Source of the DNA: a virus | Length of the DNA: 64,000 nt | Virus record (IMG/VR): IMGVR_UViG_3300032298_001038 | Coordinates: 64,001 to 128,000 of that record | Reading direction: 5' to 3' (one strand) | Part shown: positions 546 to 59,566 of the stretch, piece by piece | Layout: the number at the start of each line of letters is the position of its first letter | Position numbering within the stretch: position 1 is the stretch's first letter | The notes under the pieces: generated by a model | Database searches by the model: none | What the model saw: only the letters and a program-made list of their open reading frames with translations | Told to the model about the DNA's origin: nothing | Position numbers and translations under genes: made by a program

Positions 546-914
546 TTAATTGTTTTCGGCGCGGGATTGCAGAAACGACGAATAGACTTTCGCCGCTGCG
601 GCGAGTTCTTTTCCCATCGCTTTGACTTCGTCGAGGATGTCACACACTTCCTGCGCGTCGTCGTCTGAAAATTCTTCGATTTCGATCTTGGCTTTGACGA
701 GCCGGATGTGGGCGCGTGAGCGACGGATAGTCTCAAACTGAACGTCCATGTCGATTTTTTCAAGCGCCTCTGCAATAGCCTTGGCGATCGGATTGCTGTC
801 CTTGCTCTGCTCGACGAGAGATTCAATGTCTCGCTCGATCTGCCGAAGCCGAATCAGCCCTTCATCGATCAAATCCAAAATCTGTGTGCGCTCGTTATCG
901 GTGAATTGCATCAT
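546..914 (-). CDS. hypothetical helical/coiled-coil protein
   Basis: 122-aa ORF with GGAGG RBS. Confidence 0.7.
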   Translation of the reverse strand: MMQFTDNERTQILDLIDEGLIRLRQIERDIESLVEQSKDSNPIAKAIAEALEKIDMDVQFETIRRSRAHIRLVKAKIEIEEFSDDDAQEVCDILDEVKAMGKELAAAAKVYSSFLQSRAENN

Positions 915-935
915 GCAACCTCCTGAATAGATATG

Positions 936-976
936 AAAAAACCGGGGCGGGTAGATTGTTGCCTACCCGCCCCGGT
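936..976 (-). terminator. intrinsic terminator closing the GGY-NN array transcript
   Basis: perfect 14-bp inverted repeat ACCGGGGCGGGTAG/CTACCCGCCCCGGT (941-954, 963-976), followed by a T-run on the minus strand. Confidence 0.85.
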
Positions 977-984
977 CGCAGTTT

Positions 985-1703
985 GCCAATGCATGCCTCG
1001 CCGGAACAAGCCTCATCAGGCATCGCCCAGCCTGTCCAAGCCTGCCGCGGATAGCCGAACCACTCCCGGCCTCTCCTCGCCCTGCCTAACCCTGCCTGCC
1101 GAACCGAGCCTGACCCTGCCTCGCGGAGTCAAGCCCTGCCGTGCCTGCCGTGTCTATGCCTCTGCCCGCCGGTCCCGGCCACTCCCGGCCAAGCCCAGCC
1201 TCGCCTGCCGTGTCTATCCCGGCCGGGGCGCTCCCGGCCTTGCCATACCTCGCCTGCCGAGCCTATCTGGCCGCGTCGAGACGAGCCGTGCCTAACCATG
1301 CCTGCCATCCCGCGCCCGTCATACCGCGCCTTGCCACGCCTGTCCGAGCCTGCCGTGTCTAAGCGACACCGATCCTCACCAAAGCATGCCGTGCCTTGCT
1401 CTGCCTGCCTCGCCATGTCGCTGCTCGCGCGTCCACGCCGTGCCTTACCCAGCCTGCCGGTCCAAACCGAACCTTGGCTATCCACACCTCACCGCTCGTC
1501 GCCCCGCCTCGCCGTGCCATGCCTGCCCAGCCCTGTCAAGCCGAGCCATGCCTAGGCATGCCGAACCGAACCGCGTCCAGTCCAAGCCTGCCGCGTCGTG
1601 CCTAGCCGAACCTAGCGTTGCCCTACCAAGCCTGCCGTGTCTATGCAGTTGCAAGCCAATTCTTGCCCATCCCGGCCACGCCTAACCCAGCCTGCCGTGT
1701 CTA
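985..1703 (-). ncRNA. GGY-NN 5-nt periodic repeat array, putative guide-RNA array (VIPR-like)
   Basis: Minus strand reads (NN-GGY)n, e.g. TG GGT TA GGC GT GGC CG GGA TG GGC. It contains 13 GGCAGGC delimiters spaced 44-69 nt and 5 exact TAGACACGGCAGGC copies. It lies directly downstream of the Cas7-like operon and ends at a terminator. Confidence 0.8.
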
Positions 1704-1721
1704 AATGCTCAGGCTCGATGC

Positions 1722-2207
1722 TCAGGCTCGCGCCACGCGCCGATTGCGCCGGCGTGTGGCGTTGCGGGCTACACGATCCAAAGCAGCGAACACAGGCGTC
1801 AACTCGCGCAGCGATTCGTACTTGCGTCGAACTCGCTGCAACTCGTCAATCGCCTGCTGCAACAACTGTGCGCGCATTTCGGCACTGCTCATCACGTCGG
1901 TGAGTGCACGATAGCCACCACCGCCGCTTTTGCGATCCGAAACGAGCGACACGAACATCGGCATACGAACACTGCCGTTCGGCGTGTCGAGTACTTCGAT
2001 GTTCAACCGGATGATCTTCCTCGCCTGCTCCAATCGAAACTGGTGCGCGGCTTCGGTGTCATCCCATTCAAACTCTGCGTGGAGCGCAGTGTTTTCATCA
2101 CGAGCAAACTCCACAACCGCTTCGGGCGGAACGCGGCCGTCGTGCTCGTTGTAAATCTGCGTCAGTTCTTCCTTGATGGAAGAGATTGCTCTACGGCGTC
2201 TCGCCAT
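1722..2207 (-). CDS. conserved phage protein, partner of the Cas7-like gene
   Basis: PEAVVEFARDENTALHAEFEWDDTEAAHQFRLEQARKIIR matches a widespread phage family; GGAG RBS. Confidence 0.8.
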   Translation of the reverse strand: MARRRRAISSIKEELTQIYNEHDGRVPPEAVVEFARDENTALHAEFEWDDTEAAHQFRLEQARKIIRLNIEVLDTPNGSVRMPMFVSLVSDRKSGGGGYRALTDVMSSAEMRAQLLQQAIDELQRVRRKYESLRELTPVFAALDRVARNATRRRNRRVARA

Positions 2208-2224
2208 AAGAACTCCTTGTTAAA

Positions 2225-3028
2225 TCAACCCTTCACACACTCGAAATGACCCCAGCCCATACCGCACGAGTTGGGCGAGTCAGCGCGGCCTTCGCCGACG
2301 CCGACCTGCATCCCGGCACGCAGCATGAGGTTGGCGATGTCAGCCGGCGTAAACATGTCGGCGTCGAAGCGCACGCGAACCTTGGCCCGCCACGATTCAA
2401 ACATGGCGCGCACACGAATATCAGCGACGCCGGTCGCATTGCGCACCGTGTGCTCGACGTGCTTCGGCTTGGCGTCCACCAACTTGCCCTTGCCATCCGC
2501 GTACAGATGAATCAGCGGCGTACCCTCGACAGCATCGAAGCCGTCGGCCTCGACGAAGATGGCCTTCTTCGCCTTGGTCTTGTGATAACCCACGACCACG
2601 CAGGAGTCAACCAGCGCGTTTCGCAGGGCACTTGCCGGGATGCCACACCAACCCTTGGTCGAGCGGTGCTGGGCTTCCTTGAAGTTCGCCTCGAAGTCCT
2701 TGGCCTCGCGCTTCTTGCCCTTGGAAGCCGTGGAGCCGGCGGCCTGCTTCTCGCGCATCATCTCGCGTGCCTTCTTGCCGAACGCCAACTGCACGTACGG
2801 CGCCGTGCCGCGGATCACGATCTCCACAGTCTTGAAGTTGGGCGCGGTGATCGTCACGCCCAGCCTTTCGGCGACGGCGATATCGATCTTATTACTCGGG
2901 TCAAGGTGAGTTTCAACGATATCTTTTACGCGCTTACGAAACACGCCATCTTCAATCTTGGATGACTTGGATTGCGCGGTCTTAGTCTTGGTCGCCGTTT
3001 TCTTCGAACCCTTGAGCATCGTTGCCAT
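2225..3028 (-). CDS. stand-alone Cas7-like RAMP protein
   Basis: N-terminal strand VEIVIRGTAPY, IPASALRNAL motif, C-terminal G-rich loop AGMQVGVGEGR...GMGWGHFE. Confidence 0.8.
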   Translation of the reverse strand: MATMLKGSKKTATKTKTAQSKSSKIEDGVFRKRVKDIVETHLDPSNKIDIAVAERLGVTITAPNFKTVEIVIRGTAPYVQLAFGKKAREMMREKQAAGSTASKGKKREAKDFEANFKEAQHRSTKGWCGIPASALRNALVDSCVVVGYHKTKAKKAIFVEADGFDAVEGTPLIHLYADGKGKLVDAKPKHVEHTVRNATGVADIRVRAMFESWRAKVRVRFDADMFTPADIANLMLRAGMQVGVGEGRADSPNSCGMGWGHFECVKG

Positions 3029-3042
3029 GTCTATTCCTTGGT

Positions 3043-3077
3043 AAAAGAAAAACCCACGGCGAAAGTGCCGTGGGTTT
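3043..3077 (-). terminator. terminator-like hairpin just upstream of the Cas7-like RBS
   Basis: 11-bp stem AAACCCACGGC/GCCGTGGGTTT followed by TTCTTTT on the minus strand. Confidence 0.6.
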
Positions 3078-3248
3078 AAATAACAAAAGCGTGCCCCGGG
3101 AATTGCACCCGAGTGGTTTTGGTACTCTAGCCTGCCGTATAACCCCGACAGACAACCGCGTACAATTTTTGACGTCGGTTACGCCGACGTACGTACACGT
3201 ATCATAGAGTAGGTTATCCCAACCAGTTCGCTAGAACGCACGCATAAG

Positions 3249-3602
3249 TGGAGCCGGCGGGAATCGAACCCGCGTCCAGAAACGTTTCCAGTAAGAACGT
3301 CTACATGCGTAGCCAGTTATGTGTCACCAACTGGCAATGCTATCCGCACACTTAGCGGAGTCAGGCGGTTTACCGCCATCTCGCCCGATTACTTTGCCGG
3401 ACCGACGCAGGTGGCTTACCACCATCAACCTGATTGGGCAATGAGGCTCAGGTCGCCCCACTCGCGGTCCTGACTAGGTCAGGCAGCGAGGGCCGGAGCA
3501 GAAGCGCCGGTTAGAAACTTAATCGGCTTTTAACGTGGCCAACCGATCAACCACGGCATGCAATCCAAACCTTCTCCGTCCTGTCGATACCAGTACGGCC
3601 CC
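3249..3602 (-). ncRNA. ssrA: tmRNA
   Basis: 5' GGGGCCGTACTGGTATCGAC and 3' GGACGCGGGTTCGATTCCCGCCGGCTCCA tRNA-Ala-like ends; internal tag frame GASAPALAA*. Confidence 0.93.
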
Positions 3603-3604
3603 AA

Positions 3605-3678
3605 TAGCGCGGGTGGGATTCGAACCCACAACCTATTGATTTTGAGTCAATCGCCTCTGCCAGTTGGGCTACCACGCC
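3605..3678 (-). tRNA. tRNA-Leu(CAA), short variable loop
   Basis: ATTGA-CTCAAAA-TCAAT anticodon arm, GGTTCGAATCC T-arm, 74 nt, CCA not encoded. Confidence 0.88.
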
Positions 3679-3690
3679 AAACTATACCAC

Positions 3691-3763
3691 TGACCCCACG
3701 GGGATTCGAACCCCGGTAAACGGAACGAAAATCCGTTGTCCTAGGCCACTAGACGATGGGGCC
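3691..3763 (-). tRNA. tRNA-Glu(UUC)
   Basis: ACGGA-TTTTCGT-TCCGT anticodon arm, GGTTCGAATCC T-arm. Confidence 0.9.
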
Positions 3764-3817
3764 AAACGTATTAGAAAACCGACGCAAAACGTCGAGTTTC
3801 CAATACGAGTTGGGCAG

Positions 3818-4111
3818 TCACTTTTCGGACCAAAACATTTCAGCACGCGCGATAGCGGTTTTGATATTTTTGTGTCCGACCGGATTTGCTGAATGTACCA
3901 CGACTGTCAAGGGCGCCAATGTCTTTTTGTAAGCGGCCTCTTCAATAAATTTGGCAATATCGTAGCCGGTTTTTTCTTCGCCAAGGTCGTGATCGAGTGA
4001 CAGGTGCGTGATGCGGCCAATACGCAGCGCAGTGATTGCGGCGTCTGCGGTTTTTAGCCAGACGTCGAACTCGGGCGGCTTTGGTCGAACATCGTCTACC
4101 CAAACTTTCAT
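3818..4111 (-). CDS. cyclic-phosphate-processing receiver-domain (cREC) protein
   Basis: VWVDDVR...LSLDHDLG...TGYD...VHSANPVG motifs. Confidence 0.8.
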   Translation of the reverse strand: MKVWVDDVRPKPPEFDVWLKTADAAITALRIGRITHLSLDHDLGEEKTGYDIAKFIEEAAYKKTLAPLTVVVHSANPVGHKNIKTAIARAEMFWSEK

Positions 4112-5576: not shown

Positions 5577-5589
5577 GTGGCTCCTTTAG

Positions 5590-5665
5590 TAGGGCGGGTT
5601 GGAGTCGAACCAACCTATGGGCACCTTATAAGAGTGCTGGATGCAACCGGCTTACCTTCCGCCCC
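5590..5665 (-). tRNA. tRNA-Ile(UAU)
   Basis: GCACT-CTTATAA-GGTGC anticodon arm, GGTTCGACTCC T-arm. Confidence 0.88.
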
Positions 5666-5709
5666 AAAAGCGGGCGCCGGGGAACTTGGGCGATTCGCCC
5701 GGCGCCCGC
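5666..5709 (-). terminator. GC-rich hairpin plus T-run directly 5' of tRNA-Ile (terminator or processing signal)
   Basis: 12-bp stem GCGGGCGCCGGG/CCCGGCGCCCGC. Confidence 0.45.
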
Positions 5710-5714
5710 CGTGA

Positions 5715-6098
5715 TCAGCGGTAACGCTTACAAGCGTACCACCGACCATTGCGACCGCAGGCTACGCCTTGGTCAACAACGCGCATGCCGCTATTCGAGT
5801 AGCAGCAGTTGTTAAGTGCCTGCTCGGGCGTCGCACCCATGCCAACGCCTTCGTAGCCAGAGTTGCCACCGAAATGCTGGACCACGCCGCGGCTGGCCAT
5901 CATCTCAGCAACACCCTGCGCAGACCCGGTGCCGCCAACAGCGTCGGACTGCGAGGTGTAGGCATAAACACGTTCCTGCGAAACTGGAGCCGTCGTGGCT
6001 GCCGGCGCAGAATACGTGTAGTTACGCCGCCAACGGGGAGCCGCCTCGACCGTGGACGCGGCGAGAACGACAAACAGACACATCAGAATGCGAACCAT
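5715..6098 (-). CDS. secreted small Cys-containing protein
   Basis: signal-peptide-like N-terminus; GYEGVG...ALNNCCY...GRWYACKRY pattern, which I recall from planctomycete proteins. Confidence 0.7.
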   Translation of the reverse strand: MVRILMCLFVVLAASTVEAAPRWRRNYTYSAPAATTAPVSQERVYAYTSQSDAVGGTGSAQGVAEMMASRGVVQHFGGNSGYEGVGMGATPEQALNNCCYSNSGMRVVDQGVACGRNGRWYACKRYR

Positions 6099-6167
6099 AA
6101 ATCCTCCGTGATTGTGCCGGTGGTGTGCCCGGCTAACGAGAATCCAAACCCCACACCGGGCAAAAAA

Positions 6168-6464
6168 CTAGCGACCGACAGGCTTGGTGAACTTGGTGAG
6201 TTCCTTCACCCTGTCACCGTTCTCGACGTAAAGCCACGTCTTGGGTCGCGGATCGTCGGGCTGATTAAACGCACGGAACTCGTCGAGGTTGTAGCAGTAC
6301 GCCGCAGCCTCGAACGGGCCGTTATCGACTACACACACGACGGCGCCCATGTCCTCCTTGATGAAGAACTCAGCCTCGTCGCGGGTGATTTCGATAGCGT
6401 CCAAGTTTTGCTTGAGCGCCGCAGCCTTGTTCTTGGGCTGCTGCGTTTCGATGTAATAACCCAT
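6168..6464 (-). CDS. hypothetical phage protein (MGYYIET...)
   Basis: start trimmed so it does not overlap tRNA-Val. Confidence 0.7.
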   Translation of the reverse strand: MGYYIETQQPKNKAAALKQNLDAIEITRDEAEFFIKEDMGAVVCVVDNGPFEAAAYCYNLDEFRAFNQPDDPRPKTWLYVENGDRVKELTKFTKPVGR

Positions 6465-6490
6465 CTGGTTCCTTTCGTTAAAAGGTCCAA

Positions 6491-6564
6491 TAGGCGCAGA
6501 GGGATTCGAACCCCCGACCTTCGGTATGTAAAACCGACGCACTAACCAACTGTGCTATGCGCCT
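6491..6564 (-). tRNA. tRNA-Val(UAC)
   Basis: TCGGT-TTTACAT-ACCGA anticodon arm, GGTTCGAATCC T-arm. Confidence 0.9.
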
Positions 6565-6572
6565 ACGCGAGA

Positions 6573-6833
6573 TCAGAGGTCTTCGGCCGTCTCGCGGACG
6601 TCCTTGTCGCCATCATCGGCGTACATCGCGAACATGCTGTCTTCGCGGTAGTACGAGATCAGATCGCAGACCTTGTCGTCAAGATCAGCCACGAGATCGC
6701 CGAGATCGTCGGGCATATCTCCGCCCAGAACCTCGCCCGTCTCCGGGTCGATGTTCATGCCTTCAGCGTCGAACACGTTCTTCTTGACATTGTCCCACGC
6801 AGTAACCAGCAGTTCAATTTCAAGCGGCAGCAT
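6573..6833 (-). CDS. acidic hypothetical protein
   Basis: ORF track, AGGAG RBS. Confidence 0.65.
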   Translation of the reverse strand: MLPLEIELLVTAWDNVKKNVFDAEGMNIDPETGEVLGGDMPDDLGDLVADLDDKVCDLISYYREDSMFAMYADDGDKDVRETAEDL

Positions 6834-6853
6834 TGTGCGCTCCTGTACGGGTG

Positions 6854-7186
6854 TTAGTCGGGAATCACGTAATCAGGCGGCAACGGCACCCAACTCTTGG
6901 CGCGCTCCGCGTCGTAAGGCATCCACCACGGCGCGTCGTCCGCGTCGCAAACGCCCCAGTCGTTGTTGATAAACTTGTTGTGATTGATAGCGTTCACAAC
7001 ATGATCCGGCAGGTCGACGATGACTTCCTCGCCGTCTTCGTTTTCGGTCAAACCCTTGGTTTCTACGGTCGGGTCAAATCGACCGATGTGCAGCCCGACA
7101 GGGTGACCGAAGTAATAGACCATTTGGCCTTCTTCCGGCAGCCGATCCGAACACCGAATCCAACCGCGTTCTTCAGCAGATCGCAT
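6854..7186 (-). CDS. hypothetical protein, DUF551-like
   Basis: WIRCSDRLPE N-terminus and W.PLP C-terminus. Confidence 0.6.
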   Translation of the reverse strand: MRSAEERGWIRCSDRLPEEGQMVYYFGHPVGLHIGRFDPTVETKGLTENEDGEEVIVDLPDHVVNAINHNKFINNDWGVCDADDAPWWMPYDAERAKSWVPLPPDYVIPD

Positions 7187-7203
7187 ACGGTTCCTTTTGT
7201 TAT

Positions 7204-7479
7204 TTATTCGTCTTCTTCTTCGCCGCCGAACATTTCATTCCAGCATTTGTCGCAAATGCCAGAAATAAGAAATTCACGCTCGGCTGCGGTGAGATACGAG
7301 AAACAATCCTGCGCGAAACCGCCGTTACGGAAACGTGCCAAATCTTCAATCTTGGCGCGTACCGTCTGCTTTTCGCTGCACGAATAACAAGGCCCCGACA
7401 CCTCCGCGTAGGTGGCGTCAGCATTGTCGACGGCGCAAATGCCGTCACGGAACGCATACTTTTCGATCAGAAAGGACAT
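7204..7479 (-). CDS. Zn-ribbon-like small phage protein
   Basis: CYSC ... AEREFLISGICDKCW motif. Confidence 0.65.
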   Translation of the reverse strand: MSFLIEKYAFRDGICAVDNADATYAEVSGPCYSCSEKQTVRAKIEDLARFRNGGFAQDCFSYLTAAEREFLISGICDKCWNEMFGGEEEDE

Positions 7480-7492
7480 TGAAATCTCCTAA

Positions 7493-7576
7493 TGGGGTCG
7501 GTGGGACTTGAACCCACACGGGATTACTCCCAACGGATTTTAAGTCCGTTGCGGCTGCCGATTACGCCACGACCCC
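7493..7576 (-). tRNA. tRNA-Leu(UAA)
   Basis: ACGGA-CTTAAAA-TCCGT anticodon arm, long variable arm, GGTTCAAGTCC T-arm. Confidence 0.9.
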
Positions 7577-7625
7577 AATGCCGCCAGCCGAGTAGCCCCG
7601 GTTAGAACTGGCGGAAAGGGTCATG

Positions 7626-7925
7626 TCAGGCAAACCGGTCCTGCATACGAGCATTCATCCACTCGTTCATGTTTTCGAGTGAACCCCAGCAAGAGCCGGG
7701 CGCTTCGTTGTAGAACCACTGGACGTAGAGTTTGAGCAGCCCGATGTTCTGCTCGTCGGCGCAACCCACGGCACGCCGCAGGTCGTTGGTGATGACGCCG
7801 GTCAGGAAGTCGCCGGGCTTGATGCCCTGTACGACATAGCGCCGAATGGCTTCCTGCATGTGGGGCGGAATGGTCGCGTAATCGCCCCGAAACTCTACGT
7901 CGAATTCAAACTTGGTTGCGGTCAT
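7626..7925 (-). CDS. conserved phage hypothetical protein (MTATKF...)
   Basis: PGDFLTGVITNDL..AVGCAD motif; start trimmed. Confidence 0.7.
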   Translation of the reverse strand: MTATKFEFDVEFRGDYATIPPHMQEAIRRYVVQGIKPGDFLTGVITNDLRRAVGCADEQNIGLLKLYVQWFYNEAPGSCWGSLENMNEWMNARMQDRFA

Positions 7926-8167
7926 CTCTGCGTCCAGACGTACCACTGATTGTTTTCGTATTTCCACCACTGCCCGTTGTGGTACATGACACGGGCCTGT
8001 GGTTGCGGCTGCGCTTGCCCCGCGGGCTGCATCATCGGCTGCTGCGCCGGAGATTGCAACTGTTGCGGTTGAACGCCTAATTTCTGCTGCATTTTGTCGG
8101 CACCGATCTGGGCGAGCGGTTGCAAAAACGGCATGAGCAGCGTGAAGAGCAAAACAAACAACTGCAT
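7922..8167 (-). CDS. small secreted/membrane Gln-rich protein
   Basis: hydrophobic N-terminus, GGAGG RBS, ATGA overlap with the next gene. Confidence 0.65.
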   Translation of the reverse strand: MQLFVLLFTLLMPFLQPLAQIGADKMQQKLGVQPQQLQSPAQQPMMQPAGQAQPQPQARVMYHNGQWWKYENNQWYVWTQR

Positions 8168-8213
8168 GGAAAACCTCCTTGCACAAGAAAGCCAGCGATC
8201 CTCCGCCGGACAA

Positions 8214-8285
8214 TGGGGCCGGTGGGATTCGAACCCACAACCAAAGGATTAAAAGTCCCTTGCGCTACCGTTGCGCCACAGCCCC
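8214..8285 (-). tRNA. tRNA-Lys(UUU)
   Basis: AGGGA-CTTTTAA-TCCTT anticodon arm, GGTTCGAATCC T-arm. Confidence 0.9.
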
Positions 8286-8304
8286 AACCGCCGTTGTTAC
8301 ACGA

Positions 8305-13741: not shown

Positions 13742-15594
13742 TATGGCACCAAATCACCGGTGAGAATCCACTGATTATCTGCGATCATAATTAACGTCGC
13801 TGTACTGTATGTATCGCGTAAGGTTGGCCCGGGTGTAGAGAACAGCGTGCAGCCAGAACCAGCCACACACGTTACAGAACCCGAACCAATGTTAATGATA
13901 TCTATGTTTACGCCCGGCAAAATTGTGGTGTATGGACTCGGGAATGAGTACCGTTGTGGCACGGTGATTGTAATGTTTGACGCCGAGTTGCACAGGAGTA
14001 TTTTTCCCGCGTCACTCGCTACGAAAGTGTAATTAGCGCTGACATTTGTAAAACTTTGAGAAAGCGCAAAATTACCTTGAGGTCCGGCAGCGCCGCTTGG
14101 GCCTGTCGGACCTGTTGCGCCGCCGGGCAAACCCTGCGGGCCGGTCTCGCCCTGTGGGCCTGTTGCGCCTGACGGGCCAGCGGGACCTGTGGCGCCAGTT
14201 ATACCGATACCAGTCGCACCACGCAGCCCGGCTGTACCTTGCGGCCCGGTTGGTCCCAAAGGCCCTGTTGGTCCGGTCGGACCAGAAACACCAGTCGCCC
14301 CTGTCGGTCCGTTTTCGCCTTGAATTCCGTCTTCGCCCTGCGGACCTGTTGGTCCGGACGGGCCGGTGGCGCCAAGCGGACCAATTTCACCTTGCGGCCC
14401 TGTAGGCCCGTCGACACCTGTTGGACCAGTTGAACCGACGACACCAGTAGCGCCTGTTTCGCCGGTTTCTCCTTGATCGCCTGTAAGACCAATTAGACCT
14501 GTAGGTCCGGTTTCGCCTTGTGGTCCCGTCGCGCCTGTTTCTCCAGTTGGACCTGTCGGACCTTCAATGCCCGTTGGTCCTGTCGTGCCCTGCAAACCAG
14601 TTGGACCTGTGGCGCCAGATGGTCCTGTTGCGCCAGTTGGACCGGCAATGCCTTGTGGTCCCTGCTCGCCCTGCGGGCCTTCGCTGCCGTTTGTACCCGG
14701 CAAACCCTGCGCGCCCGTGGCGCCTTGAATGCCCGTTGCCCCAGTCGGCCCGGGAATACCGGTCACACCAGTCGCGCCGGTAGCGCCCTGCTCGCCGGTG
14801 TCGCCCGTCAAACCTGTGGCGCCCGTGGCGCCGTCAACACCTGTTGCGCCTGTCGGACCTTCTATACCCGTTGCGCCGCGAAGGCCAGACGCACCTGTCG
14901 GGCCGACGGGTCCATCAACACCTGTTGCGCCTGTTGCACCAGCGCCGCCTTGTACGCCCGAAGCGCCGGTCGCACCTACCGGGCCGAAAGGACCAACCGC
15001 GCCTGTCGCGCCGATTTGACCCATAGGCCCTGTTGCGCCAGTGGGGCCTGTCGTGCCTCGTGGGCCAGTAGGGCCTGTAGTTCCTTGTGTGCCAGTTACA
15101 CCCGTTGCGCCAATGACGCCTGTTGAGCCGGTTACACCTTGCGGACCCGTCGCGCCTGTAATACCTGCGGCGCCAGTAGACCCTTGAATACCAGTCGCGC
15201 CAGTTGCGCCTGTTAAACCTTTTGTACCTTGCGGCCCAGTCGCGCCGCTGGCGCCCATCGGGCCAACCATGCCAGTAACGCCGACAGCGCCGCTTGGCCC
15301 GACAGCGCCTGTAGCGCCCTGCGGTCCCGTGGCGCCACGTACGCCGGTCGCACCGACGCCGATAATCTCCGCGGGAATCTGCGCGACGGGGACTTTACCG
15401 TCGCTGCCAAGGCTCGCGACGCCATTGGGTTGGCCGCGATCGCCCCACGTCAGCGCGCCTAAAATATCTAAAAGGCGACCAACCGTGGTTTTTTTAGTTA
15501 TCGGCGGTTGTGCCTGTTGATCGACAATCGCCAGTAGGTCATCGCGATTCGGCGAATCTTTCAGCGGCAGATCGGATATGCGTTTTTTGGCCAT
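13741..15594 (-). CDS. collagen-like tail fibre
   Basis: over 400 aa of Gly-X-Y (GATG/GPTG); N-terminal KRISDLP anchor; C-terminal ...WILTGDL head domain. Confidence 0.88.
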
Positions 15595-17747: not shown

Positions 17748-20700
17748 TCAGTCGGTGATAACGTAGAACGTGCTGGCGTCCTTGGAAGCGAGCGCGTCGT
17801 ATTCGGCTTGCGTCAGGCTGACGATGTTGGTGATCTGGTCGGCACCGGCGATTCCCGTGGTGACGCTGGTGATCGCGCCGCCCGTGTAGGCTGTGGTCTG
17901 TGTTGTGCCATCGGGGAACGTAAGGCCGCCTGTGCCAGACACACCTACAATCTTGAGGTTGTTAACAAACGTGGTGTCCGCAGCGTCGGCTGTGATGGAA
18001 GAACCGATGATGTGAGCGTTTGATTGACTGTTGGTGTTGTTGCTCTGGCCGCCAAGAACCGAAGAATAGGCGCCGCTAGCGGTGTTGTCTTCGCCGCCAC
18101 TGATGGTGCTGCGGTTGCCGCTGGCGGTGTTGTTATAGCCGCCGACAACGCTGTAATTGCCGTTAGCGGTGTTGCTTCTGCCGCCGCTAACGGCGCTGTA
18201 GGCGCCGCTGGCGGTGTTGCCAAGGCCGCCGACGACGGCGCTGTAGTTGCCGCTAGCGGTGTCGCCGCTGCCGCCGCCGACGACGCTGGCGTAGCCACTG
18301 GCGTTATTTTGATTGCCGCCGACGAGGCTGGCGTAGTTACTGGCGTTGTTCTGTCTGCCGCCGCCCACAGTACCGTAGGTGCTGCTAGCAGTGTTATTAT
18401 TGCCGCCGCCGACGGTGCTGCGGTCGCCGCTGGCGGTGTTGTTATAGCCGCCGCTGACGGTGCTGTAGTTGGCGCTAGCGGTGTTCTGTCTGCCACCGCT
18501 GACGGTGCCGTAGTAGCCGCTGGCGTTGTTGTTCTGGCCGCCGCTGACGGTGCTGGAGGTGCCGCCAGCAGTGTTTTGATAGCCACCGCTCACAACGCTG
18601 TACAGGCCGCTGGCGGTGTTGTTTCTGCCGCCGCTGACGGTGCTGCGGTCGTGCGTGGTGGCGTTGTTCCTGCCGCCGCCGACTACGCTGGCGTAGCCAC
18701 TGGCGGTGTTTTGATAGCCACCGCTCACAACGCTGTAAACGCCGTAAGCCTCGTTATCAGTACCGCCACCAACAGTGCTGCCCACCTCACTGGCGGTGTT
18801 CCTCCCCCCGCTGACGGCGCTGTACAGGCCGCTGGCGGTGTTTCCCCGGCCGCCAAGTACGCCGGAGTATGTTCCGCTGGCGGTGTTTTCCCGGCCGCCG
18901 CTGACGGCGCTTCGAGTGCCGCTGGCGGTGTTGCTTTCGCCGCCGCTGACGGTGCTTCGAATGCCGTTGGCGGTGTTGCCTGTGCCGCCGCTAACGGTGC
19001 TGTAGTAGCCGCTGGCGGTGTTGGCACCGTTGACAGGCACAATGCTGTTTGACCCAGAACCGGTTGTGTACGGGCTGGACCCGCCGCCGGACGAGATTTC
19101 CCAGCGATTAGTCGACGTTGAGTAAGCAAGGGTCGCGCCGTTAGTAGCCGAACCGGCCCAGCCCTCTGAACCATACGGGTCAAGAATCCACGGAGACGTT
19201 GCGGCCGTCCACGACGACCCCATGTTGTCAGACTTCAGTACTTGATTCATGCCGGTCGGACTCGGAACAGAAGCAGAAGAAGGCTGTTCAGCCACCCACT
19301 GGTTCATCATGCTGTCCCAAGTCAGCACGTAACCGTCTGTGATACTACCTGCGGGAAAAACGCTTCCGGCTTCCCAGTTGTTATTTAAAGTATTCCACAC
19401 AAGATGCGGCGACGAACTAGAACCGCTGGGTAGGCTGCCAGAGGCGGCAGTGGTTTGAGTTGTGCCGTCGGGGAACGTGATGCCTCGATTGCTGTCCACG
19501 ATCTTCAGCGCATTGACGAATGTCGTGTTCGCAGCGTCGGCTGTGATACCAGAGCCGATGATGTGGGCGTTAGCGTTGTTGTTCGTACTGTTGTTCTGGC
19601 CGCCAAGTACGCTGGAATAGGCGCCGCTAGCGGTGCTGTTGTAGCCGCCGCTGATAACGCCGAAGACGCCGCTGGCGGTGTTGCCCCAGCCGCCGCTGAC
19701 GGTGCTGTAGTCGGTGTTGGCGGTGTTCTGTCTACCGCCGCCGACGGTGCTGATATACCCGCTGGCGGTGTTGCTAAAGCCGCCGCTGACGGTGCTGTAG
19801 TTGCCAAGTGTATCGTTGTTATCACCGCCGCCAACGAAACTGTAACTGCCGGTCGCGTTGTGCGAAAAACCGCCGCAAATAGTCGCCGCGGGGCCGTCAG
19901 CAAGATTAAATTGCCCACCGCATATCAGCGCGTGCGTACTACCAGTTGCCGAATTGTGACTGCCGCCATGTACGGCCGAGTAATTAACAGAAGCCGTGTT
20001 GTCAAAACCACCCCCGACGACGCTGGCGTAGCCACTGGCGGTGTTTTTATAGCCGCCGCTCACAACGCTGGAAACGCCGCTAGCGGTGTTCTGTCTGCCG
20101 CCGCCCACAGTACCGTAGGCGCCGCTAGCAGTGTTATTAATGCCGCCGCCGACGGTGCTGCGGTCGCCGCTGGCGGTGTTGGTACCGTTGACAGGCTGAA
20201 TGCTGTTTGTGCCAGAACCGGTTGTGTACGGGCTGGACCCGCTAGCCGTAGTCTGCGTTGTGCCGTCTGGGAACGTGATGCCTCGACCGCTGTCCACGAT
20301 CTTCAGCCCATTGACAAAGGTTGTGTCCGCAGCGTCGGCTGTGATACCAGAGCCGATGATGTGGGCGTTAGCGTTGTTGTTCGTACTGTTGTTCTGGCCG
20401 CCAAGTACGCTGGAATAGCCGCCGCTAGCGGTGTTGCCTGTGCCGCCGCTGACGGTGCTGGAGATGCCGCTGGCGGTGTTGTTTACGCCGCCGCCTACGA
20501 CGCCATAGCCGCCGGTTACCGAATTCGACCGGCCGCCCGCAACAACGGTATAGCCAGCCGACGCGCTCGACAAATTATTGGAGCCGCCGCCGACCACGGG
20601 ATACACGCCGCCCGCGGCTGTGTTGTTACGCCCGCCGCCGACAAAAGCACCGGTAGTGCCAGCGCTGTTGAGCGCGCCGCCCACCACAGCAGAAATGGCG

Positions 20701-21932
20701 CCACTAGCGACGTTGCTCTCGCCTTCGAGGTTGCTTTCGTTGATCCAGCCGCCACCGGCAACAACGGCGCCAATGCCGTTGGCGGTGTTTTCCCGGCCGC
20801 CGCTCACAGTAGAATAGGTGCCGCTGGCGGTGTTGCCCAAACCTCCGGCGACCGTTGCCTCAGACATGCCGCTAGCGAAGTTGCCGTTGCCGCCGCCGAC
20901 GGTGTTGGCGTAACCGGCTGCGGTGTTGTTTATGCCGCCCAGCACGCTGGAATAGTTTTGGTTGGCAACGTTGTTCTGGCCGCCAAGTACGCTGGAGTAT
21001 GTTCCGCTGGCGGTGTTGTTCTGGCCGCCAAGTACGCTGGAGTATGTTCCGCTGGCGGTGTTGTCTTCGCCGCCACTGATGGTGCTGCGGTTGCCGCTGG
21101 AGGCGTTGCTTTTGCCCCCGCTGACGGCGCTGCACACGCCGCTGGCGATGTTGCCCCAGCCGCCGCCGACTACGCTGGTGGAGCCGCTGGCGGTGTTGTT
21201 TCTACCGCCGCTGACGATGGTAGCGTTCTCGCTGGAGGTGTTGTTAATTCCGCTGCTGACGGCGCTGTATTGGCTGCTGGCGTTGTTGCCAAAGCCGCCG
21301 CAGACCACGCTGTAGTCGCCGCTGGCGGTGTTGTTAATTCCGCTGCTGACGGCGCTGGTGTAGCCGCTGGAGGTGTTGTTCCTGCCGCCGCTGACGGTGT
21401 TGGCGTAACCGGCTGCGGTGTTGTTCTGGCCGCCAAGTACGCTGGAGTATGTTCCGCTGGCGGTGTTGTTACCGGTGACAGGCACAATGCTGTTTGTGCC
21501 AGAACCGTCCGTATACACGCTACTCCCGGCGGTACCTTGCGCACCTGTTGCGCCTTCCGGTCCTGTGGCGCCGGTAGGACCTTCCGGTCCTGTGGCGCCC
21601 GTGGCGCCGTCTAAACCAGCAACGCCTGTGGCGCCCGTGGCGCCGTCTAAACCAGCAACGCCTGTTGCGCCCGTGACGCCGGCTGGACCAGCAACGCCTG
21701 TTGCGCCCGTGACGCCGGCTGGACCAGCAACGCCTGTGGCGCCCGTGACGCCTGTAACTCCAACGCCACTACCACCGCCGCCAGTAGACCAGTTCGCAAC
21801 ATTACCGTCCGCGTCTAACGCGTAGATTTTCTTATCCGCAAGATTCAGCGCCAACTCGCCGGGGACGAGGTCGCTGGCGGCTGGCTCTAAACCGGGAACG
21901 TCACTGCGCTTGTGGCGAATTTTGTTAGACAT
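17748..21932 (-). CDS. large tail fibre/adhesin with a short collagen segment and three beta-roll repeat blocks
   Basis: dozens of ~15-aa NTASGxYSxVxGG repeats; the block ends TFVNxLKIV...[11 protein letters not shown] occur three times. Confidence 0.88.
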
Positions 21933-59495: not shown

Positions 59496-59566
59496 ATGCC
59501 CGACTAGGATTCGAACCTAGACAAAGGGAACCAAAATCCCTTGTGCTACCGTTACACCATCGGGCA
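59496..59566 (-). tRNA. tRNA-Gln(UUG)
   Basis: TGCCCGA/TCGGGCA acceptor stem, AGGGA-TTTTGGT-TCCCT anticodon arm, GGTTCGAATCC T-arm. Confidence 0.9.

What the first reader, a model, noticed from the sequence alone, without database searches (positions are those of the whole stretch)
985..1703. Two-level grammar inside the array: 13 GGCAGGC phase-shift delimiters and 5 exact TAGACACGGCAGGC headers
GCCTGCC (minus GGCAGGC, a 1-nt rather than 2-nt gap) starts at 1040, 1094, 1143, 1203, 1252, 1300, 1348, 1403, 1452, 1521, 1586, 1630 and 1690. Spacings are 54, 49, 60, 49, 48, 48, 55, 49, 69, 65, 44 and 60, and many equal 5n+4. The exact 14-mer GCCTGCCGTGTCTA occurs at 1143, 1203, 1348, 1630 and 1690; the copy at 1690 opens the array. 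Example units on the minus strand are TG GGT TA GGC GT GGC CG GGA TG GGC AA GAA TT GGC TT and TT GGT AG GGC AA CGC TA GGT TC GGC TA GGC AC GAC GC. Off-consensus triplets (GAC, GGA, GCC, CGC) keep the register. This suggests about 13 individually processed guides of roughly 8-13 NN positions each, with the phase shift marking a processing or filament-capping site and TAGACAC marking duplicated or newly added units.
Basis: seen in the sequence. Interest (0 to 1): 0.82.

Follow-up and report, generated by a model that had tools for sequence, protein, structure and literature searches.

The report
Phage VIPR guide-RNA array, staggered type
The five-base GGC-NN rhythm, with GGCAGGC marks every 44-69 bases, is the guide-RNA array of a phage VIPR system, a CRISPR-like DNA-silencing system first described in 2026 preprints, so it is a well-resolved new example of a known kind.

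Summary
All 13 GGCAGGC sites and all 5 TAGACACGGCAGGC copies lie at the stated coordinates on the minus strand. Nothing like this array occurs elsewhere in the 198-kb phage genome.

- **Family-wide pattern:** In 68 related loci, 78% of 457 one-base-short junctions read exactly GGCAGGC. Unit lengths peak at 44, 49, 54, 59, 64 and 69 nt.
- **Array starts:** Arrays begin at GGCA|GGC straight after non-repeat DNA, so the heptamer is a two-sided boundary signal.
- **Variable positions:** The NN positions carry 3.94 of 4 possible bits.
- **TAGACAC:** It is a clade-specific copy of the array's leader junction. Three of the four internal copies cancel the phase shift. Units just after a copy are shared with relatives less often, which hints at turnover there without proving it.
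- **Targets:** None is secure. Unit 9 spells the Walker-B motif of an AAA_5 ATPase.

RNA processing was not tested. This scan has found staggered VIPR arrays before on other DNA. Verdict: a new member of a known kind.

The parts
2225..3028 (-). vipr-like gene: 267-aa RAMP (Cas7/Csm3-fold) protein with a basic N-terminal extension
1722..2207 (-). vap-like accessory gene (161 aa), function unknown
   Evidence: It matches phrog_15946 at E 1e-24. A 153-159-aa gene lies directly after vipr in the relatives. Its atlas neighbours are viral hypothetical proteins.
978..1703 (-). Staggered vrRNA array: leader junction plus 13 units of GGY-NN pentamers separated by GGCAGGC
   Evidence: This is the only period-5 GGY tract in the 198-kb genome. 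It lies on the same strand as vipr, as in 82 of 83 loci.
1690..1703 (-). Array leader junction TAGACAC+GGCAGGC, 19 nt after the vap stop codon
   Evidence: Every close relative starts its array with (T)TAGACAC, GAGACAC or AAGACAC followed by GGCA|GGC, right after vap.
1633..1692 (-). Unit 1 (10 NN, ends in an internal header at 1637-1643); no counterpart in relatives
1589..1632 (-). Unit 2 (8 NN); diverged counterpart is the first unit of L001
1524..1588 (-). Unit 3 (3 + 9 NN, with an internal +1 slip)
1455..1523 (-). Unit 4 (13 NN); shared with L001 unit 3
1406..1454 (-). Unit 5 (9 NN); identical in L001. Two 18/18 one-base-skip hits in IMG/VR, close to the number expected by chance
1351..1405 (-). 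Unit 6 (9 NN, ends in the header at 1355-1361); shared with L001 and L087
1303..1350 (-). Unit 7 (6 + 2 NN, with an internal -1 slip at GACGGGC); unshared
1255..1302 (-). Unit 8 (7 + 1 NN); shared with L001 and L087; ends in the header-like TAGGCTC
1206..1254 (-). Unit 9 (7 NN plus an in-register header at 1210-1216); shared with L001 and L087; spells [DE][IM][NK]RAPRYT
   Evidence: It has one 18/18 hit in the Walker-B motif DEINRAPRYT of an AAA_5 ATPase gene.
1146..1205 (-). Unit 10 (7 NN, internal GGCGGGC slip, ends in the header at 1150-1156); unshared
1097..1145 (-). Unit 11 (9 NN); unshared
1043..1096 (-). Unit 12 (10 NN); the most widely shared unit (L001, L087, L085)
978..1042 (-). Unit 13 (about 12 NN), running into the terminator without a closing delimiter
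940..977 (-). Intrinsic terminator closing the array (16-bp stem, 11 G-C pairs, T run)
   Evidence: Equivalent hairpins end the arrays of L001, L086 and L087.
3130..3138 (-). Lone ACGGCAGGC in the leader upstream of vipr; role unknown
   Evidence: A similar stretch occurs in L087.
3050..3077 (-). Terminator-like hairpin just upstream of the vipr ribosome-binding site

Best explanation
The region 978-1703 (minus strand) is the guide-RNA (vrRNA) array of a phage VIPR system.

Transcription (inferred). The array is probably transcribed with, or just after, the vipr (2225-3028) and vap-like (1722-2207) genes, and it stops at the terminator at 977-940.

How a unit works (by analogy with the published type II system). 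Each unit is a run of about 8-13 GGY-NN pentamers. One Vipr protomer grips each GGY. The NN pairs are presented to double-stranded DNA and read two target bases, skipping the third.

The junction. GGCAGGC is the join between units. The last pentamer of one guide (GGCA-G) and the first of the next (G-GCNN) share one G, so the register slips by -1.
- Shown: the heptamer is a conserved, two-sided boundary signal. It opens arrays after non-repeat DNA and closes them before non-repeat DNA.
- Inferred: the 4-nt spacing stops a Vipr filament from continuing across the junction. Each unit would then form its own ribonucleoprotein, and the exposed junction would be cut or trimmed, giving 12-13 guides.

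The header. TAGACAC is the leader junction of arrays in this clade. Its internal copies mark the edges of blocks of units. They were most likely left when units or blocks were added or exchanged next to a leader-type junction. This last step is the weakest.
For: Protein.
- The C-terminal Gly-rich loop is invariant.

Context.
- The genome is a virus record of 198 kb carrying tRNAs and a tmRNA.
- The order is vipr, a small accessory gene, then the array, with no cas genes or CRISPR repeats.
- In 82 of 83 loci with a homologue there is a GGY period-5 array on the gene's strand.

Published model.
- VIPR vrRNAs have 9-16 YNNGG repeats, and staggered arrays derive vrRNAs from positions overlapping by 1 nt.

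Delimiter.
- There are 13 of 13 GGCAGGC in the window.
- Of 457 GGY-N-GGY junctions in 68 loci, 357 read GGCAGGC, and the single base is A in 83%.
- Unit lengths of 5n+4 account for 271 of 374 units, with peaks at 44-69 nt.
- Slips of -1 far outnumber +1.
- Of 58 arrays located without using the delimiter, 27 begin exactly at GGCA|GGC after non-repeat DNA.
- The arrays of L001, L086, L002, L083 and Cy-LDV1 end with GGCAGGC followed by non-repeat DNA.

Modularity.
- Units 5, 6, 9 and 12 recur nearly unchanged and in the same order in L001, L087 and L085, while other units are replaced whole.

Variable positions.
- Entropy is 0.76 (G1), 0.89 (G2), 1.32 (Y3), 1.96 (N4) and 2.00 (N5) bits.

Targets.
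- No guide matches its own genome, as the paper reports for VIPR.
- Unit 9 spells the DEINRAPRYT Walker-B region of an AAA_5 ATPase, with the wobble base skipped.

Header.
- It lies at the array start in all close relatives.
- Internal copies occur only in this clade.
- Units downstream of a header are less often shared.
- The window's extra unit 1 sits between two headers, ahead of an otherwise L001-like series.
Against: - No RNA data exist for this locus. The paper states that staggered arrays, unlike two other array types, were not confirmed by small-RNA sequencing.
- Sequence-level kinship to the published Vipr proteins could not be tested. There was no hit to SUSP1 in the phage collection and none in the PDB sequences.
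- Target evidence is thin.
  - Unit 5's two exact hits lie in unrelated genes and number about what chance gives.
  - Units 4, 6 and 12 gave nothing convincing.
  - Unit 9 has a single hit.
- Register slips also occur inside units 3, 7, 8 and 10, so a slip alone does not always mark a guide boundary.
- For the header, the association with unshared units rests on 49 non-independent units from 5 arrays. Several header-preceded units are shared between relatives.
Confidence: 0.8

Rival explanations
1. The array is a VIPR array, but it is not cut into 13 guides. It would act as one long RNA, or as a few RNAs bounded by TAGACAC. These would carry several Vipr filaments joined by GGCAGGC hinges, and the header would serve as a 3' tail or an internal start signal.
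For: - There is no processing evidence for staggered arrays.
- Headers divide the window's array into 5 blocks, and the array start always carries one.
- Type II vrRNAs carry an invariant 3' tail.
Against: - Most of the family, including L002, L084, Saal and Cy-LDV1, has no or almost no internal headers yet keeps GGCAGGC every 44-69 nt.
- Header junctions fold no better than plain ones: mean -12.7 against -13.6 kcal/mol, p 0.43.
- No sigma-70-like promoter was found in the region.
- Blocks would be up to about 280 nt long, far above the published vrRNA size of under 100 nt.
Confidence: 0.12
2. The tract acts as DNA. It would be an array of protein-binding sites, for example for the 161-aa partner protein or for partition or packaging factors, and not an RNA gene.
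For: - Regular short repeats can be iterons or centromere-like sites.
- vap proteins of some VIPR types are predicted DNA binders.
Against: - Strand polarity is strict: GGY lies on the vipr strand in 82 of 83 loci.
- A strong terminator in the same orientation closes the array here and in relatives.
- The hypervariable NN positions and whole-unit turnover fit guides, not binding sites.
- The published system shows such tracts are expressed and co-purify with Vipr.
Confidence: 0.04
3. The tract is a decaying pentanucleotide microsatellite, or a compositional artefact, with no function.
For: Some pentamers are off consensus, and a few slips lie inside units.
Against: - NN dinucleotide entropy is 3.94 of 4 bits, while GGY is conserved.
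- All 13 slips in the window use the same heptamer, with A as the single base.
- The same grammar recurs in 68 loci whose proteins are 50-90% identical.
- Units are conserved between phages whose flanking genes have diverged.
Confidence: 0.01

Closest known systems
VIPR systems with staggered vrRNA arrays (bioRxiv 10.64898/2026.04.26.720920, main text and fig. S18 legend)
   Same: - A phage-borne stand-alone RAMP gene with a small accessory gene.
- An array of GGY-NN pentamers in runs of about 9-13.
- Neighbouring guides overlap by one base, so the end of one marks the start of the next.
- No guide matches its own genome.
   Different: - This locus is not shown to be among the paper's 664 loci.
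- The text I could read does not give the GGCAGGC consensus, its use as an opening and closing signal, or the TAGACAC leader copies.
- The paper did not confirm staggered arrays by RNA sequencing.
Type II VIPR of Escherichia phage SUSP1 and the Pseudomonas fulva prophage (same preprint; structures in 10.64898/2026.04.26.720927)
   Same: - One protomer binds per pentamer, GGY is sequestered, and NN reads DNA with a one-base skip.
- The protein is a small RAMP with a G-loop.
   Different: - Type II vrRNAs are separate transcripts of about 100 nt, each capped by an invariant 3' tail with a pseudoknot.
- Here the units abut without tails, and no conserved structure was found at junctions.
- No sequence match to SUSP1 was found.
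CRISPR arrays with class 1 Cas7 backbone filaments (type III Csm3/Cmr4)
   Same: - Guides stored in an array.
- Units are shared in the same order between relatives, variable units lie toward the leader, and the most widely shared unit lies near the far end.
   Different: - There are no repeats of 25-40 nt and no contiguous spacers.
- There is no cas1, cas2, cas6 or cas10.
- Specificity sits in dinucleotides interleaved with GGY.
TRAP (trp RNA-binding attenuation protein) binding GAG/UAG triplets spaced by 2-3 nt
   Same: A protein oligomer reads a triplet repeated about every 5 nt, over about 11 repeats.
   Different: The fold and the role are unrelated. This was my first guess before I found the VIPR papers, and I dropped it.

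Membership tests
[not shown]
   - Invariant Gly residues lie at 243, 245, 247, 256 and 260, and W259 is nearly invariant.
- The thumb was not examined residue by residue.
VIPR system | Sequence kinship to the published Vipr proteins (PSI-BLAST family seeded with X1U2U4) | not testable with these tools
   - The published sequences are not held here.
- tblastn against cultured phages finds Cy-LDV1, 27 Mycobacterium-phage records and 2 Gordonia-phage records, but not SUSP1.
- There is no PDB sequence hit.
VIPR system | vrRNA of alternating conserved GGY and hypervariable NN, with 9-16 repeats per guide | tested here: met
   Entropy is 0.76-1.32 bits for GGY against 1.96 and 2.00 bits for NN. Units hold 8-13 repeats.
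VIPR system | Minimal locus (vipr plus vap and intergenic RNA, no CRISPR array or other cas genes), mostly in phages | tested here: met
   - The neighbours have no cas families.
- No CRISPR-type repeats were found.
- The record is a virus record.
- The vap-like gene is syntenic in relatives.
VIPR system | NN positions match natural DNA targets under the one-base skip rule, with the skipped base at the codon wobble position | tested here: inconclusive
   - Unit 9 has one 18/18 hit, in frame, in the Walker-B motif of an AAA_5 ATPase.
- Unit 5 has two 18/18 in-frame hits in unrelated genes, near the chance level.
- Units 4, 6 and 12 gave nothing convincing.
VIPR system | vrRNAs are expressed and co-purify with Vipr; the complex silences DNA targets | not testable with these tools
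   No RNA or binding data exist for this locus.
Staggered vrRNA array (sub-architecture) | Adjacent vrRNAs derive from positions overlapping by 1 nt, so the end of one marks the start of the next | tested here: met
   GGCAG and GGCNN share one G at all 13 junctions. 5n+4 spacing dominates across the family. Processing itself was not tested.
CRISPR-Cas array | Direct repeats of about 25-40 nt separating unique contiguous spacers, with adaptation genes nearby | tested here: not met
   Neither the tandem-repeat nor the family scans found such repeats or cas1/cas2.

The most novel reading that the evidence does not exclude
GGCAGGC, more fully CAY-GGCA-GGC, is a sequence-specific maturation site. 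The TAGACAC-GGCA copies are scars of polarised growth: new guides would enter next to a leader-type junction, which is duplicated each time. Staggered VIPR arrays would then record acquisitions at the leader end, much as CRISPR arrays do, but without Cas1. Arguments for: every array has a different first unit, the most widely shared unit lies near the far end, and units next to a header are the least shared.
Probability: 0.12. Interest if true: 0.8.

Novelty: new member of a known kind. Interest (0 to 1): 0.35.

Why it matters
VIPR was published only in 2026, and its staggered arrays are the one architecture the authors did not verify by RNA sequencing.

This locus and its relatives supply a precise, testable grammar:
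- a conserved heptamer that opens, separates and closes guides;
- guide lengths quantised at 5n+4;
- turnover of whole units between sibling phages.

The same grammar occurs in cultured phages: Mycobacterium phage Saal and about 26 related records, and Cyanophage Cy-LDV1. In those phages, end-mapping and mutation of the junction are ordinary experiments.

The result does not change the concept of VIPR. If unit addition proved to be polarised at leader-type junctions, it would bear on how guide arrays grew before CRISPR adaptation existed.

Tried and rejected
- **TRAP-like RNA sponge or DNA iteron array.** This was my first guess. I dropped it once the neighbouring RAMP gene and the VIPR papers were found.
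- **Single-sequence fold of the 267-aa protein.** It was useless at pLDDT 33.6 and was redone with an alignment.
- **Sequence libraries.** Pfam, NCBIfam, PADLOC and the PDB sequences gave no family for vipr or vap. Rfam found nothing in the array.
- **Header as a structured 3' tail.** Rejected: header and plain junctions fold alike.
- **Header as a sigma-70 promoter.** There is no promoter-like site in 850-3350. Phage-specific promoters were not tested.
- **Header linked to the vipr start codon.** AGACATGGCA occurs at the start codon in the window, L001, L087 and L088. It is absent in L085 and L086, which do have headers, so I treat it as unproven.
- **Self-targeting and sibling targeting.** No guide from 8 arrays scores above shuffled guides against the window's own genome or against two sibling contigs. 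On a third contig, G003, the only match above background is unit 5's IMG/VR hit, which is there by construction.
- **Convergent targeting of the contig holding unit 5's hit.** The best other guide reaches only 19 of 26.
- **Other target scans.**
  - Exact scans for units 12, 4 and 6 gave nothing convincing in IMG/VR; the hits for units 12 and 6 do not extend or lie in no reading frame. Unit 4 also gave no hit in genome contigs.
  - Neither the DHFR, the portal nor the AAA_5 target gene has a homologue in the window's genome.
- **BLAST alignment of arrays.** It was confounded by the repeats and was replaced by unit-by-unit scoring.
- **Metagenome scan with the single protein.** It returned only 2 loci.

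Full report
**1. Observation**

TAGACACGGCAGGC occurs at the 5 listed positions.

- The window holds 20 GGCAGGC against 9.7 +/- 2.9 in shuffles.
- Thirteen of the 29 minus-strand copies in the whole 198,312-bp genome fall in this 0.7-kb tract.
- Mononucleotide shuffles of the tract give 0.27 copies.
- Base identity at lags 5, 10, 15 and 20 is 0.44-0.49, against about 0.25 in control regions.
- Spacings between successive GGY are 5, 10 or 15 nt in 75 cases, 4 nt in 14 cases and 6 nt once. The single base at the 4-nt spacings is A in 13 of 14.
- No other period-5 GGY tract exists in the genome.

Three corrections apply.
1. At three of the four internal TAGACAC junctions, the header adds one base. 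This cancels the -1 slip, which is why those spacings are 60, 55 and 60.
2. Extra slips lie inside units 3, 7, 8 and 10.
3. Unit 13 runs into the terminator without a closing delimiter.

**2. Context**

The tract is non-coding. It lies 19 nt after the stop codon of a 161-aa ORF (1722-2207, minus strand). That ORF follows a 267-aa ORF (2225-3028, minus strand) by 17 nt.

A 16-bp G+C-rich hairpin with a T run closes the tract at 977-940.

The genome is a virus record of 198 kb. The window carries a tmRNA and seven tRNAs.

**3. The protein**

Sequence libraries give no family for the 267-aa protein, but it has 2811 homologues.

The C-terminal glycine-rich segment is invariant across the family.

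**4. The published system**

A literature search then found two 2026 preprints.
- VIPR consists of a stand-alone RAMP (Vipr), an accessory gene (vap), and vrRNAs of 9-16 YNNGG repeats.
- GGY is gripped by the protein, and NN reads double-stranded DNA while skipping every third base.
- Seven types are described.
- Among the array architectures are "staggered arrays with overlapping vrRNAs". The fig. S18 legend says that individual vrRNAs derive from positions overlapping by 1 nt, so that the end of one marks the start of the next.

GGCAGGC is exactly that arrangement: GGCAG and GGCNN share the middle G.

The paper says the ribozyme-separated arrays and the single-vrRNA systems were confirmed by small-RNA sequencing. 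The staggered type was not.

**5. Family-wide test of the first level of the grammar**

- In 82 of 83 loci carrying a homologue, a GGY period-5 array lies on the gene's strand.
- In 68 non-redundant loci I found 457 GGY-N-GGY junctions. Of these, 357 read GGCAGGC, and the single base is A in 83%.
- Unit lengths peak at 44, 49, 54, 59, 64 and 69 nt. Of 374 units, 271 have length 5n+4.
- Arrays were also located without reference to the delimiter. In 27 of those 58 arrays, the first solid run of repeats starts exactly at the second GGC of GGCA|GGC, directly after non-repeat DNA. CAY often precedes it.
- Several arrays end with GGCAGGC followed by non-repeat DNA and a terminator.

The heptamer is therefore a two-sided boundary signal and not only a by-product of two repeats overlapping.

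Position-specific entropy is 0.76 (G1), 0.89 (G2), 1.32 (Y3), 1.96 (N4) and 2.00 (N5) bits. NN dinucleotides carry 3.94 of 4 bits.

**6. Unit modularity**

I compared arrays of close relatives whose Vipr proteins are 73-93% identical to the window's.
- Whole units are shared in the same order. Unit 5 is identical in L001. Units 6 and 9 recur in L001 and L087. Unit 12 recurs in L001, L087 and L085.
- Units 1, 7, 10, 11 and 13 have no counterpart.
- Each array has a different first unit.
- The most widely shared unit lies near the terminator end.

**7. The second level: TAGACAC**

- Every close relative begins its array with (T)TAGACAC, GAGACAC or AAGACAC followed by GGCA|GGC, right after vap.
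- Internal copies occur only in this clade. Arrays with other leaders do not repeat them.
- Header junctions fold no better than plain ones.
- No sigma-70-type promoter was found in the region.
- Across five arrays, units that directly follow a header are unshared in 18 of 24 cases, against 8 of 25 for the rest (Fisher p 0.004). The counts are not independent, and shared units that follow a header do exist.
- The window's extra unit 1 sits between two headers, ahead of a series that otherwise parallels L001.

I read the header as a copy of the leader junction that marks block edges. Its link to recent addition is a hint only.

**8. Targets**

- Under the one-base skip rule, no guide matches the window's own genome or two sibling contigs better than shuffled guides do.
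- Exact IMG/VR scans gave the following.
  - Unit 12 (first 8 NN): 10 hits forming 4 distinct sequences, none extending to the ninth NN.
  - Unit 4: no hit, and none in genome contigs either.
  - Unit 6: one hit, in no reading frame.
  - Unit 5: two 18/18 hits. Both are in frame with the wobble base skipped, but they lie in a DHFR gene and a portal gene. I estimate that number to be close to chance.
  - Unit 9 read through its in-register header: one 18/18 hit spelling EINRAPRYT, within DEINRAPRYT, the Walker-B region of an AAA_5 ATPase.
- N4 is purine-rich (62%), as first codon positions are.

These results fit the VIPR code but do not establish a target.

**9. Mechanism**

- **Shown:** the anatomy, the conservation and the modularity.
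- **Taken from the published type II system:** one protomer binds per pentamer, two neighbouring protomers share each GGY, and NN reads DNA.
- **Inferred:** a 4-nt spacing cannot be bridged by two neighbouring protomers. Each unit would then nucleate its own filament, and the junction would be cut or trimmed.

**10. Verdict**

This is a genuine VIPR locus with a staggered array, a new member of a known kind. Earlier follow-ups of this scan reached the same class on other genomes.

Two things are added here: the quantified junction grammar and the clade-specific leader copies.

Cultured phages carry the same grammar. In Mycobacterium phage Saal the array lies between gp50 and gp51 in the immunity region. 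In Cyanophage Cy-LDV1 the arrays lie after g34. These phages make the open question, processing at GGCA|GGC, directly testable.

Noticed in passing
L118 (Mycobacterium phage Saal, NC_023580.1) 2110-2360; L119 (Cyanophage Cy-LDV1, BK059895.1) 3160-3380 and 3960-4100: Cultured phages carry homologues of this protein (33% and 48% identity) next to GGCAGGC-delimited GGC-NN arrays. In Saal the array lies between gp50 and gp51 in the immunity region, and its last GGCAGGA abuts the gp51 start codon. All these genes are annotated as hypothetical.
   Followed up: partly
window 3028-3040 (minus); the same place in L001, L087, L088: The vipr start codon lies in AGACATGGCA. This equals the header variant TAGACAT+GGCA used in L001's array. 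It is absent from L085 and L086, so it may be chance or an autoregulatory site.
   Followed up: partly
window 3130-3138 (minus): A lone ACGGCAGGC lies in the leader between the tmRNA gene and a terminator-like hairpin (3077-3050) that directly precedes the vipr ribosome-binding site. L087 has a similar stretch. How vipr is transcribed past this hairpin is unclear.
   Followed up: partly
window 1705-1730: An exact 13-nt tandem duplication (ATGCTCAGGCTCG x2 on the plus strand) spans the vap stop codon. The second copy recreates the TGAGCATTTAGACAC junction seen in L087.
   Followed up: no
window 3248-3764, 5589-8286, 59496-59566: The phage encodes a tmRNA (tag peptide GASAPALAA) and seven tRNAs (Leu x2, Glu, Ile, Val, Lys, Gln), most of them just upstream of the VIPR locus.
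   Followed up: no
window 3818-4111 (minus): A 97-aa protein matches the cREC_REC cyclic-phosphate-processing receiver domain (PF20274, E 1e-25), next to the tRNA/tmRNA cluster.
   Followed up: no
window 14130-15215 and 21589-21755; 18072-21472: Period-9, 18 and 27 repeats look like collagen-type Gly-X-Y coding on the minus strand. A long 45-nt (15-codon) repeat tract is probably a fibre or tail gene.
   Followed up: no
all 346 distinct units from 73 loci: N4 is purine-rich (A 0.32, G 0.30) while N5 is even. The commonest NN are AA, GC, GA, AC and AT, and the rarest are CT, CC and TA. This is as expected if guides mostly copy codon positions 1-2 of the sense strand.
   Followed up: partly
L117 (IMGVR_UViG_3300033149_007212): The contig holding unit 9's candidate AAA_5 ATPase target comes from the same metagenome (3300033149) as two Vipr-carrying contigs of this family (L053, L077).
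   Followed up: no
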